From Massalongia carnosa (lineage: Eukaryota), in assembly GCA_965645245.1 (NCBI GenBank), contig OZ287083.1:558001-622000 (forward strand): a stretch of 64,000 bases of DNA, in the 5' to 3' direction. The position numbers were made by a program, and so were the translations under genes. Positions 10,376 through 15,845 of the stretch are shown here, one piece after another. The notes under the pieces are model-generated. The model saw nothing but the letters and a program-made list of their open reading frames with translations. It did no database searches and was not told the DNA's origin. How positions within the stretch are numbered: position 1 is the stretch's first letter; each line of letters begins with the position of its first letter.

Positions 10376-11784
10376 TTAAAGTCCAAGGGCGTCATACCTC
10401 CCCATCGTAACGTCACATGGCGGAGTCTGTGAGTTCCGAGCAGCCCGCGGCGGATCTCCTACTGTAGGAATTTTCCGTGCAAGGACGGGAACAGTAGAAT
10501 TTCGAGGAGATGCTGCTGGAAGCCAAGAGCCCACGCTGTCGAGTAGAGCCTGCTGATCTTTGGGAATCCTCACGTCGCGCCCGCTGATTCGCTCGGAGGT
10601 CGTACCCTCCCACCTCTGCCTCGTGCGCGGCTCACCATTTTTTTGGGGCTCCTTTTGCTTCGCTCGATGCTGCTTTCGTTTTTCCTTGAGCTCGGAATGC
10701 GTCGGTTTAGACACCAATCCCTTCGAGATGTTGACGTCGCGCATGAAGATTCCCTCGGGGGTTGGGCTCTGCCACCTCTCCCGCCTCTGCATGGTCCGCA
10801 ACTGATCCTTCTCGAGCTCCCCTTCATTCTCTCGATGATGCTCTTGTTTGTCCCCGATATCTGAATGTCTTGGTTTAGATCCCAACTTCCTCTTTCGCAC
10901 CTTCTGCTCCTCTCGAATTCGCCTATGACGATCTAAGCCTTCTGCTTTCCTCGTTGCGTGCTTTATTTCCCGCTCGTCGATGACCCAAGGGGTGCTCAGG
11001 ATATTGCGTCGGAAGGTGGAGGTTTCGGCCCAACCGGCGGCTTCGTCGGTGGTGGTGCGGATGAGGGCTGGGGCGAGGCAAGAGCTGATTAGAACAGTTG
11101 GATGGCTAGCAAGACGTTTGCGGCAGGTATAGAAGCTGCGGCATCTAAAATGAAGGGAAAGAAATAATACCAACCTATTCGCTCTAGAGTTATTTGCTTC
11201 TGCCCCCTAAATTCCCCAATGCCCCCCTTAACCTTGACTACAGCCCCAACATCCACGCCGCTAAGGTCTATGGTATGCCCCATTGCTGACACGCCAATGT
11301 GTCCCCTTTTCCCCCCATCCATGTTATCTCTCTGGAGATTTTCATCATCCTTCATGCTCGCAGCTGGGTTCAAGGCATCTGTCGCAATGCCAGTTGCAGC
11401 AGCCACAGGGGCCTGGAGCGTACAAATAAGTTCAATAGAAGCACCACAGCTATCATCCAACTGGGCGATCCAGCGGTTGTAAACGTAGTCTACAGCAACG
11501 ATGACGCCGATAAGGCGAATCCATCTGATTGGGTGGTTGAGGTGGAAGTAGATATGTTGACCTGAGGATATTAGCCAACAAGCCGTATAACACTAAGGAA
11601 CAAGGGCGAGATTCGAAGAATAGACTAAACAGATAGAAAAGAAAGGCACACCTTCGTAGCCAGCTCTCTCCCTCAGATCGAGCACGTCGGCGGCAGTGAC
11701 GCGTGCCCATGTGTTGTAGGTTGGGGAGAGCGAGAGGCAGTAGGCCGGGTAAAAAGTTAAAGATTTGGAGGAGGGATTTGGCAT
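10376..11784 (-). CDS. STN1: CST-complex OB-fold telomere protein Stn1-like, with charged low-complexity C-terminal tail
   Basis: YPAYCLSLSPTYNTW, NHPIRWIRLIGVIV, LDDSCGASIE, VGAVVKVKGGIGEFRGQKQITLERI, TTDEAAGW; two introns (~11650-11563, ~11173-11070). Confidence 0.8.
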
Positions 11785-12453: not shown

Positions 12454-12992
12454 ATGCTTCCTATCTTCCTCACATTCCTTCTCGTTCCCTAAAGCCTGGC
12501 AGGAAGCTTCCAATGCGTTCAGTATGAACCTGCCGTCAACATCATAAACGTTAATTCTCCATCCTCTCCTCTTCCACTAGCCCATCCCCCTCCCCTCCTC
12601 CGCTCACGTCCCCTCAACAAGAATCCGTCCCTTTGTCAGCCGCCACCCTCCCTAACTGCCCTGCGAATACGATTTCTTGCTCGATCGGTGAGCCAAGTTG
12701 GTGCTGCACTGCGGCGCAGCATTGTGCGTTCGATGACGCTAGGGATGTGGTGTGCTGTCCGATTGGAAATTTCTGTCATGGGGTGGTGGATTATGGGTTG
12801 GGTGGTAATGACATAGGTAGTGGAGATGGAAGTGGAAGTTGGACGGGCAATGGGAATGTAGGACCTCCACCAGAGACAGGACAAGCTAACGCACTGTTGG
12901 GGGATTTCGTGGGGATTCGGGCGGAGAATGATGGGCCGGTGACTACAATGAATGTAGGGGCGGAAAATCAAGATGGTTCATGTGCAAAGTAA
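12454..12992 (+). pseudogene. Small secreted Cys-rich protein, apparently with a premature TAA in its signal-peptide exon
   Basis: MLPIFLTFLLVP*SLAG (TAA 12490-12492); intron 12522-12580 (GTATGA...CTAG) joins in frame to CPANTISCSIGEPSWCC...CCPIGNFC. Confidence 0.5.
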
Positions 12993-13139: not shown

Positions 13140-14029
13140 TCACTGATTACCTCTCTGTGCATCTTCCTCATCATTTTTGGGAACCCCGATCACCTTGGGA
13201 ACGGTCACAGCGTTGATTTTGCGGAAAGCCTGCAAAAGTCTGTCAGCAAACAATGGCTGTCGAGGGTCGAATACACCATCGCTGCAGGTCTAGTAGCAGG
13301 CAGCAAACAGTGCTTACACACCTGCCACCACCACATATCCCATGTAAAACTCCACATGTACCAAGCCCATCCCTCGCCGTAATGAACCCACCACCAAGGA
13401 TTGAATAGTTGCTCAACACTTACATTTTTAAACGAGCTGTCTGGCAGCTGCCCGTCCCACTTATCCTCAACTTTTGTAATCTTCCCCGTAACTTTATCAT
13501 AGAAGATTAAGACCTTGCTGTTGATGGTCTGCTCTTTACCAACGCCCTTGACGACATAGCGCGTCTTCAGATCCAAACCAATCGGGTTTCCTCCATCGGT
13601 AACCTCGTGATGGAGGCGCTCGATCTCGGAGAAGGCGGATTGTAAGCCATACTAAGGTCTTTGCGTTAGTTGGGGATTGGATGTGATAGATGGCGGGCCA
13701 CGCTCACCCATTGAGGCTCAAATTGTTTGCGTCCTACTGCCTTCGTTATGGGATCTTCAAACACGCCCTCATCATCCCACAGCTGAAGTTTCTTCAACGA
13801 GGGCCTTCCGGCAAATAACTTCCGTCTTTATTAGGAGAGGCTTCATGAACATACAGAGAGCGCCTCACATCCAAGATACTTCCAACGAGGGTTTGCTGTG
13901 TCTCATCGAGGCTTACACCGCTTGCGGTTTTAATGTGTGTGTTCTCAATCCCGTAGTCTCCGCTGCCTGTTCCTTGAAGCTTAATATTTCCTTAGGTGCT
14001 ATGCAGCTTGAGGGCATACCTGTAGACAT
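13140..14029 (-). CDS. Uncharacterised fungal protein, probably NTF2/SnoaL-like fold, multi-exon
   Basis: Spliced MSTGTGSGDYGIENTHIKT...LFAGRPSLKKLQLWDDEGVFEDP...QWYGLQSAFSEIERL...KITKVEDKWDG...AFRKINAVTVPK...*; canonical splice sites; fold assignment is inference. Confidence 0.75.
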
Positions 14030-14588
14030 GTTGCGTTTGGGAGTATTCAAGGAGACTTTCGGTGAATGGATAATAAATGTATGGGTTCGAACGGCGGGGA
14101 CTTTCAAGTTTCTTGATAAAACAGACGAGGCAGTGAGAGAACGCATGTGAGATATTTAACGGAGGAAAATAAACAATTGCAGAGCGATGAGATAACTGCA
14201 CAATTGCGCCATCATGCCGTTTCTTCCTCTCCAAAAATGCATTGCATCATTACTTTTCGCTTACGAGCATAGGGCAGAAAACAGTCATTGGGCTCAGCAG
14301 GTCTTCGTAACCCTCAGGCCCTTCAACGTGACTATCGATTGTTCCATTTGGATAGTCATGTCCGTCACTATGTGTGTGCCTAGTGTACGTGTATTCTAGT
14401 ACGGAGTAGAAGATAATGAACCCTAAATCGTCGTTGGATAACTGCCGATTAGGAGAGAGAATCAAATGCAATTATCCCAACCATTCTCCTTCGCCGTAAT
14501 AGAGAATCACGTGAGATCGTGTTGACTAGGATGATCGTAACCGATGGCAAGGCTGACAATCAATGTTTGCGACGGCACGTAAAGCTCG

Positions 14589-15116
14589 TCAATCATCTCT
14601 CTTATGTCCAGCAGTAGCAACAGTCAAAATCTCATCTTCAAGCCCCGATACATGGACACAATCAATCCCCCCCTCCTCGAGCTTCATCCTCCCTGTATTT
14701 ACTCCAACAAATATCTCGGGTTCCTTCACTCCCAGGTAAACAATCTTGATACCACCGTGGGTACCAGTCCTAGTTTTGAGGATTCTCTCCGTGCATGGAA
14801 CGTTACCGCTGGCTCGACGGTCACAAGGTTCCATAGTCGTATAGAGGACGCTTCTTTCGGGCAAAACGCTACCGATTTCATCCTCGGAAACTCCTTTCAT
14901 CGCGCAATACTTGTCTAAACAGCACTGCTCAGCGTGGGTGTTGCCGGGCAGCTCCAAAGTGTACCCCGTCGATATGATTTGATTCGCAGCTTCATCAACC
15001 AGGAGGGCTCCAACACGGAAATTGGTAGATTTTGAGATTGACTTTTCTGCGAGCGCCAAGGCAAGACGCATGTAGCTTTGGTGATCTTGCGCCGGGATGG
15101 TGAGAATCTCCATCAC
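14589..15116 (-). CDS. Cytidine-deaminase-fold protein, RIB2-like DRAP deaminase
   Basis: TNFRVGALL, TGYTLELPGNTHAEQCC, YTTMEPCDRRASGNVPC zinc motifs. Confidence 0.85.
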   Translation of the reverse strand: MMEILTIPAQDHQSYMRLALALAEKSISKSTNFRVGALLVDEAANQIISTGYTLELPGNTHAEQCCLDKYCAMKGVSEDEIGSVLPERSVLYTTMEPCDRRASGNVPCTERILKTRTGTHGGIKIVYLGVKEPEIFVGVNTGRMKLEEGGIDCVHVSGLEDEILTVATAGHKRDD

Positions 15117-15845
15117 GAGTGCCGAAGAGTGTGGAAGTAACTAGGCAATCAGATTTATGAAATATAGGAAGGTCAGTCTAGAATGATCGCAATTTGGTCT
15201 TCTTCACCATAGTCAGCTGGAAGACAAACCACCATTTAGCATCCATCGACAGGTTCACTCTTCAAAGCCGTCACTTTGTACCGCCCGATGCAGCTACTGA
15301 ATAAAGTAGCTGATCTCGGGCAGCATTTCCTATCCAATCAGCAAATAGAAGATAACAACGGTTAAAGCGCCCAATGCACATCAGCTGTTGAGGCAGTTCA
15401 AAGTCGACAATGTAAACCTCGGAATAGTTAGCACGAAATTCCTAGCTCAGGCACTAACGTTAGTTGCTATTGGACTAGAATGTTTAGCCTTGCATTAGCT
15501 CATCAGATCTAAAAAAAGTTCAGGCTTGGATGAGCTAACAATGACAACATATTAAAAAAATTTTTAATTTAGACTGTTCGTCTCCTGAATTCATGCTGAG
15601 TAGAATTACGGAAATGGAAAAATCAAATTTCAGTTGAAATTTATACTGGTATGGAATTTAGTAGCATTACAAGGTCCCAGGCTAATAAGTTACTCGTAGA
15701 CGCGTCGCGTTGGATCACATGCAAATCTTTAAGCGATCAAGAAACTCTTGTTATCGGATGTAGGTAAGGCCGTTCTGACAGACAGACTCATATCTGTCAC
15801 GGTGTTCATCTAATACCTTCCGAAAGGCTTTTTTGTTCCATCACT

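What the first reader, a model, noticed from the sequence alone, without database searches (positions are those of the whole stretch)
13230..13423. Intron hides an in-frame 34-codon Trp-rich segment ending at a second donor: candidate membrane-anchor alternative exon
Seen: the last intron of the NTF2-like gene is 194 nt, longer than most here, and open in frame. Its first 102 nt encode VSVEQLFNPWWWVHYGEGWAWYMWSFTWDMWWWQ (10 Trp of 34) and end at CAG|GTGTGT (13321), a phase-0 donor compatible with the same acceptor (13230). Ten in-frame TGG codons are hard to explain as neutral intron sequence. Inference: alternative 5' splice choice gives soluble versus aromatic membrane-associated isoforms, or a Trp-codon/UGG-repeat regulatory element.
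Basis: partly seen in the sequence, partly recalled or inferred. Interest (0 to 1): 0.7.

Follow-up and report, generated by a model that had tools for sequence, protein, structure and literature searches.

The report
Conserved Trp-rich optional exon inside intron
The first 102 bases of this fungal "intron" are a protein-coding, tryptophan-packed segment kept for hundreds of millions of years between two rival splice donors, so the gene probably makes a common short protein and a rarer, membrane-seeking long one.

Summary
On the minus strand, 13423..13230 is a 194-nt GTAAGT..CAG intron. Its first 102 nt read in frame as 34 codons with 10 TGG, and end at CAG|GTGTGT (13321).

This is not neutral intron sequence. 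In 44 of 80 related fungal loci the same aromatic segment sits at the same place. Among 38 distinct DNA versions (window included):
- length is 102, 105 or 108 nt;
- 1 has a stop codon;
- 37 keep GT at the upstream donor;
- 36 keep GT at the downstream donor.

Among Lecanoromycete pairs the segment is as conserved as the flanking exons (0.79 identity). The rest of the intron sits at random level (0.53).

RNA-derived ORFs from relatives show only the short form, made with the upstream donor. Two of these match species whose genomes carry the segment. None of 133 non-NCBI (single-ORF-type) database proteins shows the long form spliced at the downstream donor. No RNA data exist for this organism.

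Best reading (about 0.6): a conserved alternative 5' splice site. The major product is a soluble NTF2-like protein. The minor product carries a 34-residue aromatic, probably membrane-binding, insert. The long mRNA is inferred, not seen. The closest known analogue is the intron-encoded membrane helix of yeast PTC7.

The parts
14030..14146 (-). In-frame upstream ATG plus a 39-codon basic extension with no acidic residue (looks like a mitochondrial presequence); optional N-terminus
   Evidence: translation: 7 R/K, no D/E. RNA-derived ORFs of relatives start at an equivalent upstream Met (P0058, P0074, P0089, P0095, P0202). Targeting not tested.
13424..14029 (-). Exons 1-4 of the NTF2/SnoaL-like gene (exons 14029..14020, 13966..13869, 13818..13708, 13651..13424; introns 14019..13967, 13868..13819, 13707..13652)
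   Evidence: Read. The joined translation matches orthologues. Fold is an NTF2 cone.
13418..13423 (-). Upstream donor (donor 1), AAT|GTAAGT
   Evidence: GT kept in 37 of 38 distinct versions. Used in RNA-derived ORFs of relatives.
13322..13423 (-). Optional 34-codon aromatic (10 Trp) coding segment
   Evidence: Conserved in 44 of 80 loci. Nucleotide identity equals that of the exons. dN/dS below 1.
13316..13321 (-). Downstream donor (donor 2), CAG|GTGTGT, phase 0
   Evidence: GT in 36 of 38, G at +5 in 35 of 38, G at -1 in 37 of 38 distinct versions. Use not observed.
13230..13321 (-). 92-nt intron proper, shared by both forms; branch-like CTGAC at 13246..13242, acceptor CAG 13232..13230
   Evidence: The equivalent stretch is at random-level identity between relatives (0.53 versus random 0.52).
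13289..13335 (-). Predicted hairpin pairing the end of the Trp segment and donor 2 with a downstream pyrimidine-rich stretch (approximate limits)
   Evidence: 8 of 9 donor-2 positions paired, -25.4 kcal/mol, z -2.1. One search gives z -2.0. A lead only.
13140..13229 (-). Last exon: conserved 29-residue tail plus stop
   Evidence: Conserved in all aligned orthologues.

Best explanation
The last intron of this NTF2/SnoaL-like gene holds an optional coding segment bounded by two competing 5' splice sites that share one branch point and acceptor. Splicing from the upstream donor (13423) removes all 194 nt and gives the short protein: an NTF2 cone joined directly to a conserved 29-residue tail. I take this to be the major mRNA. 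Splicing from the downstream donor (13321) removes only 92 nt and inserts 34 residues, 10 of them Trp, between the cone and the tail. I infer that this long form is minor or condition-dependent, and that the insert is a helical, membrane-interface-seeking element that changes where the protein sits. Shown here: the segment is under purifying selection as protein; both donors are conserved; the upstream donor is used in relatives. Inferred: use of the downstream donor, membrane binding, and any regulation.
For: Coding constraint:
- 44 of 80 metagenome loci carry an aromatic in-frame segment at this exact position.
- Among 38 distinct DNA versions (window included) the length is always 102, 105 or 108 nt, and 1 of 38 has a stop (L010).
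- Over 21 Lecanoromycete pairs, nucleotide identity is 0.79 in the segment, 0.79 in exon 4 and 0.78 in exon 5, but 0.53 in the rest of the intron (random 0.52).
- Median dN/dS is 0.40 for the segment and 0.10 for exon 4. For the L003-L004 pair the segment has dN 0.118 and dS 0.842.
- The segment occurs in named Lecanoromycetes, Dothideomycetes, Coniocybomycetes and a Leotiomycete MAG.

Donor 2 looks like a splice site, not a pair of codons:
- The hexamer is GTG followed by TGT, GGT, AGA, CGT, AGC or AGG. The encoded residue differs, but G at +5 is kept in 35 of 38 and G at -1 in 37 of 38.
- Both donors match CAG|GTRAGT about equally (6.71 versus 6.76 of 9).
- Whole-intron length is a multiple of 3 in roughly a third of class A loci by my hand tally of the lengths (no script count). 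So full retention is usually out of frame, whereas the donor-2 junction is in frame.

Donor 1 is used in vivo:
- 16 of 133 non-NCBI database proteins are short forms.
- P0112 equals the P0061 exons (Paraconiothyrium brasiliense, whose gene model carries the segment), 180 of 180.
- P0199 and P0202 equal P0171 (Cladosporium allicinum), 177 of 177, minus the segment.
- P0202 matches the genomic read-through P0207 at 191 of 193, and lacks both intron 3 and the segment.
- Five Lecanoromycete short ORFs (P0058, P0074, P0083, P0089, P0095) also lack intron 2, which all 7 Lecanoromycete genomic loci examined have.

Both forms appear to stand alone:
- 20 loci have a plain 53-81-nt intron at donor 1 with no segment, and 12 have no intron.
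- Donor 1 is destroyed but the segment stays open in L025 (TTAAGT), P0066 (N-M-S) and P0162 (K-A-S).

Protein features:
- An AlphaFold2 model of the long Lobaria model P0004 has mean pLDDT 79.1. The NTF2 cone spans residues 25-138. Helices 158-176 and 180-196 cover the segment at pLDDT about 67-76.
- The Wimley-White interface sum for the 34 residues is -15.4 kcal/mol.
Against: - No mRNA-type evidence for the long form. Of 133 non-NCBI proteins from three searches, 0 join the segment directly to the tail. 105 read through it as genomic ORFs, and 4 more were not classified by the script.
- All 31 proteins scored as long spliced forms are NCBI gene predictions, and NCBI models are themselves split (31 long, 39 short of 79).
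- No RNA run is available for this organism. The four holders are genomic contigs without joints.
- Two distinct versions, covering four loci (L003-L006, Parmeliaceae-like), have GGAGGT instead of GT at donor 2 yet keep the segment under constraint. At least there, another route (retention or a non-canonical site) is needed, or the segment has another role.
- The segment is not a classical transmembrane helix: it contains E, H, D and a G-E-G break, and Kyte-Doolittle mean is -0.38.
- The 80 loci were ranked by tblastn with a query that included the segment, which favours intact copies. Many loci are close relatives, so counts are not independent events.
Confidence: 0.6

Rival explanations
1. 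The segment is expressed by intron retention rather than by the downstream donor. Unspliced mRNA gives the NTF2 domain followed by the aromatic segment and a short, variable, lineage-specific C-terminus (a tail-anchor-like form), as in yeast PTC7.
For: - Passages read in PMC3597508 say most described fungal alternative splicing events are intron retention.
- The Parmeliaceae-like loci L003-L006 lack GT at donor 2 yet keep the segment (dN 0.118, dS 0.842).
- In L003, L005 and L006 the whole 156-nt intron is open and in frame.
- The window's frame stays open through the intron.
Against: - It does not explain the phase-0 GTGNG motif with G at -1 kept in 35-37 of 38 versions while the encoded residues vary.
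- The sequence after the segment is unconserved (0.53 identity).
- Read-through tails range from 2 to more than 70 residues.
- The highly conserved last exon would be lost or frameshifted in most lineages.
Confidence: 0.15
2. In this organism the segment is a constitutive part of exon 4. The true intron is the 92-nt GTGTGT..CAG, and the upstream GTAAGT merely encodes Val-Ser and is not used.
For: - 31 of 79 NCBI gene models include the segment.
- Donor 2 matches the consensus as well as donor 1 (8 versus 7 of 9 in the window) and lies nearer the branch point.
- A 92-nt intron is closer to the gene's other introns (50-56 nt) than 194 nt is.
Against: - Every RNA-derived ORF found in relatives is the short form, including five Lecanoromycete ones.
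- The window's donor 1 is a perfect GTAAGT.
- GT at donor 1 is kept in 37 of 38 versions, with Ser always AGT or AGC (36 of 36 versions that encode Val-Ser there).
Confidence: 0.08
3. The segment is a relic. It was once constitutive coding sequence, is now always spliced out with the intron, and has no present function.
For: Only short transcripts are seen. The segment has been lost outright in 20 loci with a plain intron and 12 without an intron. L010 carries a stop in it.
Against: If it were never translated it should have decayed like the adjacent intron sequence, which is at random-level identity, whereas the segment keeps exon-level identity. It also keeps an open frame in 37 of 38 versions across four fungal classes.
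Confidence: 0.07
4. It is a non-coding RNA or DNA element (a UGG-repeat splicing or Trp-sensing element), or a chance open frame.
For: The region around donor 2 folds more stably than controls in part of the lineages. The segment is G+T rich.
Against: - All TGG are in one frame, and indels come only in threes.
- Trp is exchanged for Phe, Leu or Tyr with two-base changes, and in Cladosporium the segment becomes a hydrophobic Leu/Val/Phe stretch.
- The whole-intron fold is not unusual (z -0.71).
- 0 of 200,000 shuffles reach the Trp count.
Confidence: 0.03

Closest known systems
Yeast PTC7 intron-encoded membrane helix (described in PMC3597508; abstract and passages read)
   Same: An in-frame, stop-free stretch inside an intron encodes a membrane-targeting segment. 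The spliced mRNA gives a protein with a mitochondrial targeting sequence, and the form that keeps the stretch goes to a membrane. The arrangement is conserved across a clade and has been lost in some lineages.
   Different: PTC7 uses full intron retention of a 3n intron near the N-terminus and a predicted classical TM helix. Here the stretch is bounded by a second donor, the whole intron is mostly not 3n, the insert is near the C-terminus and Trp-rich rather than aliphatic, and neither the long form nor any localisation has been observed.
Yarrowia lipolytica MDH2 alternative splice sites for dual targeting (PMC3372373; abstract read)
   Same: Two splice sites in one intron give two isoforms that differ by a short targeting element.
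   Different: That case uses alternative 3' sites and a peroxisomal signal, is stated to be unique to that species, and both variants were detected in cDNA.
SKI7/HBS1 ancient fungal alternative splicing (PMC3597508; abstract read)
   Same: A rare case of a protein-diversifying splice choice conserved over deep fungal divergences, with lineage-specific losses.
   Different: Different gene and alternative 3' sites, and both products were shown to be functional.
NTF2-like / SnoaL_2 (PF12680) proteins such as limonene-1,2-epoxide hydrolase
   Same: The host protein has this fold (Foldseek probability 1.00, TM to target up to 0.77). The Pfam SnoaL_2 hit is 29.0 bits for P0028.
   Different: Sequence identity is 11-19%. 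P0004 and P0074 score below the Pfam cut-off (17.4 and 19.3 against 27). No catalytic residues were examined. None of the matched structures was seen to carry a Trp-rich insert (not examined in detail).
5' splice-site-occluding stem-loops (SMN2 exon 7, PMC1802598; MAPT exon 10, PMC9236610; search listing only)
   Same: In several lineages the exon end and donor 2 are predicted to pair with a nearby downstream complement.
   Different: This is a prediction only. It is strong in 7 of 36 sequences, has not been tested for covariation on an alignment, and is in fungi.

Membership tests
Alternative 5' splice-site (exon-extension) event | Two GT donors in the same phase sharing one acceptor | tested here: met
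   GTAAGT at 13423 and GTGTGT at 13321, both phase 0, with the acceptor at 13230.
Alternative 5' splice-site (exon-extension) event | Both donors conserved in orthologues | tested here: met
   GT at donor 1 in 37 of 38 and at donor 2 in 36 of 38 distinct versions; G at +5 of donor 2 in 35 of 38.
Alternative 5' splice-site (exon-extension) event | The interval between the donors is frame-preserving coding sequence under selection | tested here: met
   Length is 102, 105 or 108 nt; 1 of 38 has a stop; identity equals the exons (0.79) against 0.53 for the rest of the intron; dN/dS is below 1.
Alternative 5' splice-site (exon-extension) event | Transcripts using the upstream donor | tested here: met
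   Met in relatives only: 16 short forms among 133 non-NCBI proteins, two of them species-matched to genomes that carry the segment. Not testable in this organism.
Alternative 5' splice-site (exon-extension) event | Transcripts using the downstream donor | tested here: not met
   0 of 133 non-NCBI proteins show the segment joined to the tail. Assembled contigs drop rare variants, so a minor form is not excluded.
NTF2-like superfamily / Pfam SnoaL_2 (PF12680) | Cone-shaped alpha+beta fold; Pfam score at or above the gathering cut-off | tested here: met
   Fold: Foldseek E 6e-6, probability 1.00, to limonene epoxide hydrolase, NsrQ/Dcr3 and PhzA/B. Pfam: 29.0 bits (cut-off 27) for orthologue P0028, but 16.0-19.3 bits for P0134, P0004 and P0074. 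Exon fragments of the window gave no hit.
Single-pass transmembrane or tail anchor | About 18-22 uninterrupted apolar residues | tested here: not met
   The window's segment has E, H, D and a G-E-G break, and Kyte-Doolittle mean is -0.38. On Wimley-White scales the best 19-residue window is -9.4 (octanol) and -13.5 (interface) kcal/mol. The Cladosporium variants come closer to a TM helix. No TM predictor was available.
PTC7-type intron-retention dual targeting | Whole intron is 3n and stop-free, so the unspliced mRNA encodes the full protein | tested here: not met
   The window's intron is 194 nt (not 3n), and read-through changes the frame of the last exon. By my hand tally lengths, whole-intron length is 3n in only about a third of class A loci.
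Mitochondrial presequence (N-terminal extension) | Basic, hydroxylated N-terminus free of acidic residues, present in mRNA | tested here: inconclusive
   The 39-residue extension has 7 R/K and no D/E. Equivalent extensions occur in RNA-derived ORFs of relatives. No targeting predictor was run.

The most novel reading that the evidence does not exclude
An ancient splice switch shared by at least four classes of Pezizomycotina. A hairpin that mimics the U1 binding partner masks the downstream donor, so the default product is the soluble short protein. When the hairpin is opened by temperature, desiccation-rehydration stress or a helicase, the downstream donor is used and a Trp-zipper-like helical hairpin is inserted. 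This tethers a presequence-bearing NTF2-like protein to a membrane. It would be an RNA-structure-gated relocalisation device in fungi.
Probability: 0.12. Interest if true: 0.8.

Novelty: new member of a known kind. Interest (0 to 1): 0.55.

Why it matters
Protein-diversifying alternative splicing that is conserved over deep fungal divergences is rare. The abstract of PMC3597508 calls such diversification much rarer in fungi than in Metazoa.

This locus offers a candidate event spanning four classes. It has a clear, cheap test: one RT-PCR across a 102-nt size difference. It also has natural controls, since some lineages have lost the segment, the upstream donor or the downstream donor.

There is a practical consequence too. 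Public gene models for this family are split almost evenly between two different proteins (31 long, 39 short of 79 NCBI models), and a few are plainly wrong, so annotation needs transcript evidence here.

An insert of 34 residues with 10 Trp is among the most Trp-dense conserved segments one could ask for. It would be a useful object for studying membrane-interface anchoring.

Tried and rejected
- RNA evidence for this organism: no RNA holder is listed. The 4 runs that hold the stretch are contigs that cover it colinearly with no joints.
- The window's own genome is not held.
- Earlier-findings look-ups by place and by sequence returned nothing.
- The listing of cluster members, meant to look for RNA-derived members of the long-form clusters, was switched off. 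That question stays open.
- Pfam on single-exon fragments gave no hit.
- Folding the whole intron with flanks gave no unusual stability (z -0.71). Only the local donor-2 region stands out.
- The ESM Atlas look-up gave only generic SnoaL-like or unnamed fungal and plant clusters.
- Two literature searches found nothing on this feature. One used tryptophan-rich, SnoaL-like, NTF2-like, alternative splicing and Pezizomycotina; the other used lichen-forming, alternative splicing, intron, isoforms and tryptophan. The one NTF2-like hit (PMC4608573, passages read) concerns an intronless DUF1348 gene and is unrelated.
- Supplements of the Cladosporium fulvum splicing study (PMC11694984, abstract only) were not opened. 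They may list isoforms of an orthologue.
- I rejected a re-splicing or twin-intron reading, because there is no internal acceptor or branch site between the donors.

Full report
**Observation.** The gene lies on the minus strand.
- By my reading, the exons are 14029..14020, 13966..13869, 13818..13708, 13651..13424 and 13229..13140. The introns are 53, 50, 56 and 194 nt.
- The joined exons give a 178-residue product that aligns end to end with orthologues.
- The last intron runs from GTAAGT at 13423 to CAG at 13230.
- Its first 102 nt continue the exon-4 frame as VSVEQLFNPWWWVHYGEGWAWYMWSFTWDMWWWQ.
- All ten TGG triplets of that stretch are in this frame and none in the other two.
- The stretch ends at CAG|GTGTGT (13321), in phase 0, the phase of the acceptor.
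- None of 200,000 shuffles of the 102 nt reached ten in-frame TGG (maximum 8). The gene's other intron sequence predicts about 0.45.

**Relatives.**
- A protein search with exon 4 plus the segment found 153 fungal proteins (E ≤ 0.001 among 228 candidates; 120 listed). Two further searches were aimed at the segment-tail junction of a Lobaria and an Aureobasidium model.
- A scan of metagenome contigs gave 80 loci with DNA (288 pattern matches, 139 confirmed, best 80 kept). These fall into three classes:
  - 44 loci have an aromatic, in-frame segment directly after the upstream donor.
  - 20 have a plain 53-81-nt intron at that donor, with no such segment.
  - 12 have no intron there.
  - The other 4 are broken or cut by a contig end.
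- Named carriers of the segment include many Lecanoromycetes, several orders of Dothideomycetes, Sclerophora (Coniocybomycetes) and a Claussenomyces MAG (Leotiomycetes).

**The segment behaves as coding sequence.** One search covers 38 distinct DNA versions, the window included.
- Length is 102, 105 or 108 nt, and one version (L010) has a stop.
- In 21 pairs of seven Lecanoromycete sequences, nucleotide identity averages 0.79 in the segment, 0.79 in exon 4 and 0.78 in exon 5.
- The remainder of the intron averages 0.53, against 0.52 ± 0.04 for random sequences under the same alignment scoring.
- Synonymous sites are mostly saturated. Where estimable, dN/dS is below 1: median 0.40 for the segment against 0.10 for exon 4, and dN 0.118 with dS 0.842 for L003 versus L004.
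- Replacements are protein-like. PWWW becomes PFWW or PLWW. In Cladosporium the segment is a Phe/Leu/Val/Trp-rich stretch of 36 residues.

**Both donors look like real splice sites.**
- The upstream donor keeps GT in 37 of 38 versions. The hexamers are GTGAGT 12, GTAAGC 12, GTAAGT 10, with GTGGGT, GTCAGT, GTTAGT and TTAAGT once each.
- The Ser codon that overlaps this donor is AGT or AGC in all 36 versions that encode Val-Ser there.
- The downstream site is GTG followed by TGT, GGT, AGA, CGT, AGC or AGG. The residue encoded changes, but G at +5 is kept in 35 of 38 and G at -1 in 37 of 38. This pattern points to a nucleotide-level constraint on a donor, not to a conserved Val-X dipeptide.
- By a crude count of matches to CAG|GTRAGT the two donors are balanced (6.71 against 6.76 of 9).
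- Whole-intron length is a multiple of three in only about a third of class A loci (my hand tally of the lengths). Full retention would therefore usually break the frame of the strongly conserved last exon, whereas a donor-2 junction never does.

**What RNA shows.** No RNA run is listed for this organism. The four holders are genomic contigs without joints.

Indirect evidence comes from the protein database. Proteins from lgn, ena and jgi sources read straight through introns, so I infer they are single-ORF calls on contigs. Examples are P0207 through intron 3, P0013 through intron 2, and P0123-P0128 through the in-frame rest of the last intron. A fully spliced protein from those sources therefore implies an RNA-derived contig.

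The 133 such proteins classify as follows:

| Class | Count |
|---|---|
| Short form (exon 4 joined to the tail) | 16 |
| Read through the segment | 105 |
| Read through a plain intron | 8 |
| Not classified by the script | 4 |
| Segment joined directly to the tail | 0 |

- Two short forms are species-matched to genomes that carry the segment. P0112 equals the exons of the Paraconiothyrium brasiliense model P0061 (180 of 180). P0199 and P0202 equal the Cladosporium allicinum model P0171 (177 of 177).
- P0202 also lacks the intron 3 that the genomic P0207 reads through (191 of 193 identical).
- Five Lecanoromycete short ORFs (P0058, P0074, P0083, P0089, P0095) also lack intron 2, which all seven Lecanoromycete genomic loci examined possess.
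- So the upstream donor is used in vivo in carrier lineages, and the short mRNA is the one that gets assembled.
- The long form is so far a prediction. All 31 proteins scored as long spliced forms are NCBI gene models, and NCBI models are themselves split (31 long, 39 short of 79).

**Natural experiments.**
- The segment has been lost while the upstream donor and a normal short intron remain (20 loci). The short protein therefore suffices for a core function.
- Conversely, the upstream donor is destroyed while the segment stays open in L025 (TTAAGT), P0066 (N-M-S) and P0162 (K-A-S). This argues that the segment is translated.
- Against a simple picture, two distinct versions covering four loci (L003-L006, Parmeliaceae-like) have GGAGGT in place of the downstream GT, yet still keep the segment under constraint. 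In L003, L005 and L006 the whole 156-nt intron is open in frame; in L004 it is not. I cannot explain how the segment would be expressed there other than by retention or a non-canonical site.

**The protein.**
- An AlphaFold2 model of the long Lobaria model P0004, built with a 45-sequence alignment, has mean pLDDT 79.1. It shows an NTF2-type cone (residues 25-138), a low-confidence linker, and two helices (158-176 and 180-196) covering the segment and the start of the tail at pLDDT about 67-76.
- Foldseek places the cone with limonene epoxide hydrolase, the NsrQ/Dcr3 isomerases and PhzA/B.
- Pfam SnoaL_2 is at or below threshold.
- The segment is not a classical transmembrane helix, because charged and Gly residues interrupt it. 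It has a Wimley-White interfacial free energy of -15.4 kcal/mol, so an interface-bound or hairpin-type membrane association is the most natural inference.
- An in-frame ATG 117 nt upstream adds 39 residues with seven R/K and no acidic residue. Equivalent extensions are present in the RNA-derived ORFs of relatives. The protein may therefore be mitochondrial, possibly with two start sites.

**A lead on regulation.**
- In a 75-nt window around the downstream donor, predicted folding is more stable than in composition-matched shuffles: mean z is -0.97. The upstream donor gives +0.54 and an exon-4 window +0.48 (36 sequences).
- z is at or below -2 in 7, 0 and 0 of the 36 sequences respectively.
- The stems pair the G-rich end of the segment and the first donor bases with a complement 8-25 nt downstream. 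The complement differs with the exon end...GGCAG pairs with CTGCC..., and ...GGGAG with CTCCC....
- Limits: the sequences are related, the shuffles were mononucleotide, and no alignment-based covariation test was made. Donor-masking stem-loops are known in SMN2 and MAPT (search listing only).

**Explanations.**
- I put about 0.6 on a conserved alternative 5' splice-site event with a dominant short form and a minor or conditional long form.
- I put about 0.15 on expression of the segment by intron retention.
- Constitutive inclusion in this organism, a non-functional relic, and a non-coding element each get less than 0.1.

**Comparison with known cases.**
- The closest known case is yeast PTC7, where a conserved in-frame intron encodes a membrane helix. 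The spliced form goes to mitochondria and the retained form to the nuclear envelope (PMC3597508, passages read).
- The present case differs in several ways. It has a second donor instead of a 3n intron. The insert is C-terminal. The chemistry is Trp-rich. The phylogenetic span is much wider. The long form is unproven.
- Yarrowia MDH2 (PMC3372373, abstract) and SKI7/HBS1 (PMC3597508, abstract) are further fungal precedents for splice-site choice giving two functional proteins.
- My two searches found no paper describing this family's segment.

**Limits.**
- The loci were ranked with a query that contained the segment, which favours intact copies.
- Counts are of sequences, not independent evolutionary events.
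- Source labels were transcribed by hand from the search tables.
- Assembled contigs under-report rare isoforms, so the absence of the long form is weak evidence against a minor isoform.
- No localisation or transmembrane predictor was available.

Noticed in passing
window 14030..14146 (-): An in-frame upstream ATG gives a 39-residue basic N-terminal extension with no acidic residue. Both this Met and the internal Met recur in relatives' RNA-derived ORFs. This suggests a mitochondrial presequence and perhaps two translation starts, so up to four protein forms.
   Followed up: partly
window about 13289..13335 (-); also L001, L002, L010, L015, L038, L045, L048 around the downstream donor: A predicted hairpin pairs the end of the Trp segment and the downstream donor with a nearby complement. 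z is at or below -2 in 7 of 36 sequences, against 0 of 36 for two control windows.
   Followed up: partly
L003-L006 (locus positions about 1831-1836): Parmeliaceae-like loci have GGAGGT instead of GT at the downstream donor, yet keep a 9-10-Trp open segment with dN well below dS. How the segment would be expressed there is unexplained.
   Followed up: partly
L010, L011: L010 has a TGG-to-stop change inside the segment with both donors intact. L011 has a broken exon 4. These may be decaying copies.
   Followed up: no
proteins P0061, P0078, P0094, P0096 (NCBI models): Some public gene models of this family look wrong at this intron. P0094 translates the segment out of frame. P0061 runs past the conserved downstream donor. 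P0078 and P0096 include only part of the segment. P0008, P0009, P0017, P0026 and P0084 are fused with neighbouring genes (Pfam PF00383 and/or PF10451 labels).
   Followed up: no
window 14589..15140 (-) and 11089..11592 (-): The flanking ORFs look like a cytidine/deoxycytidylate deaminase-type protein and an OB-fold (Stn1-like) protein. This is judged only from the Pfam labels of fused relatives' models, which imply the same gene order in Teloschistaceae.
   Followed up: no
window 12555..12992 (+): A 145-residue stop-to-stop ORF rich in Cys, Gly and Pro lies between this gene and the next. Not examined.
   Followed up: no
intron 3 position (window 13652..13707) versus L001-L008: The intron before exon 4 is present in the window but absent in the Lecanoromycete loci L001-L008. 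Intron 2 is present in Lecanoromycete loci and absent in the Dothideomycete loci examined. Intron gain and loss is active in this gene.
   Followed up: partly
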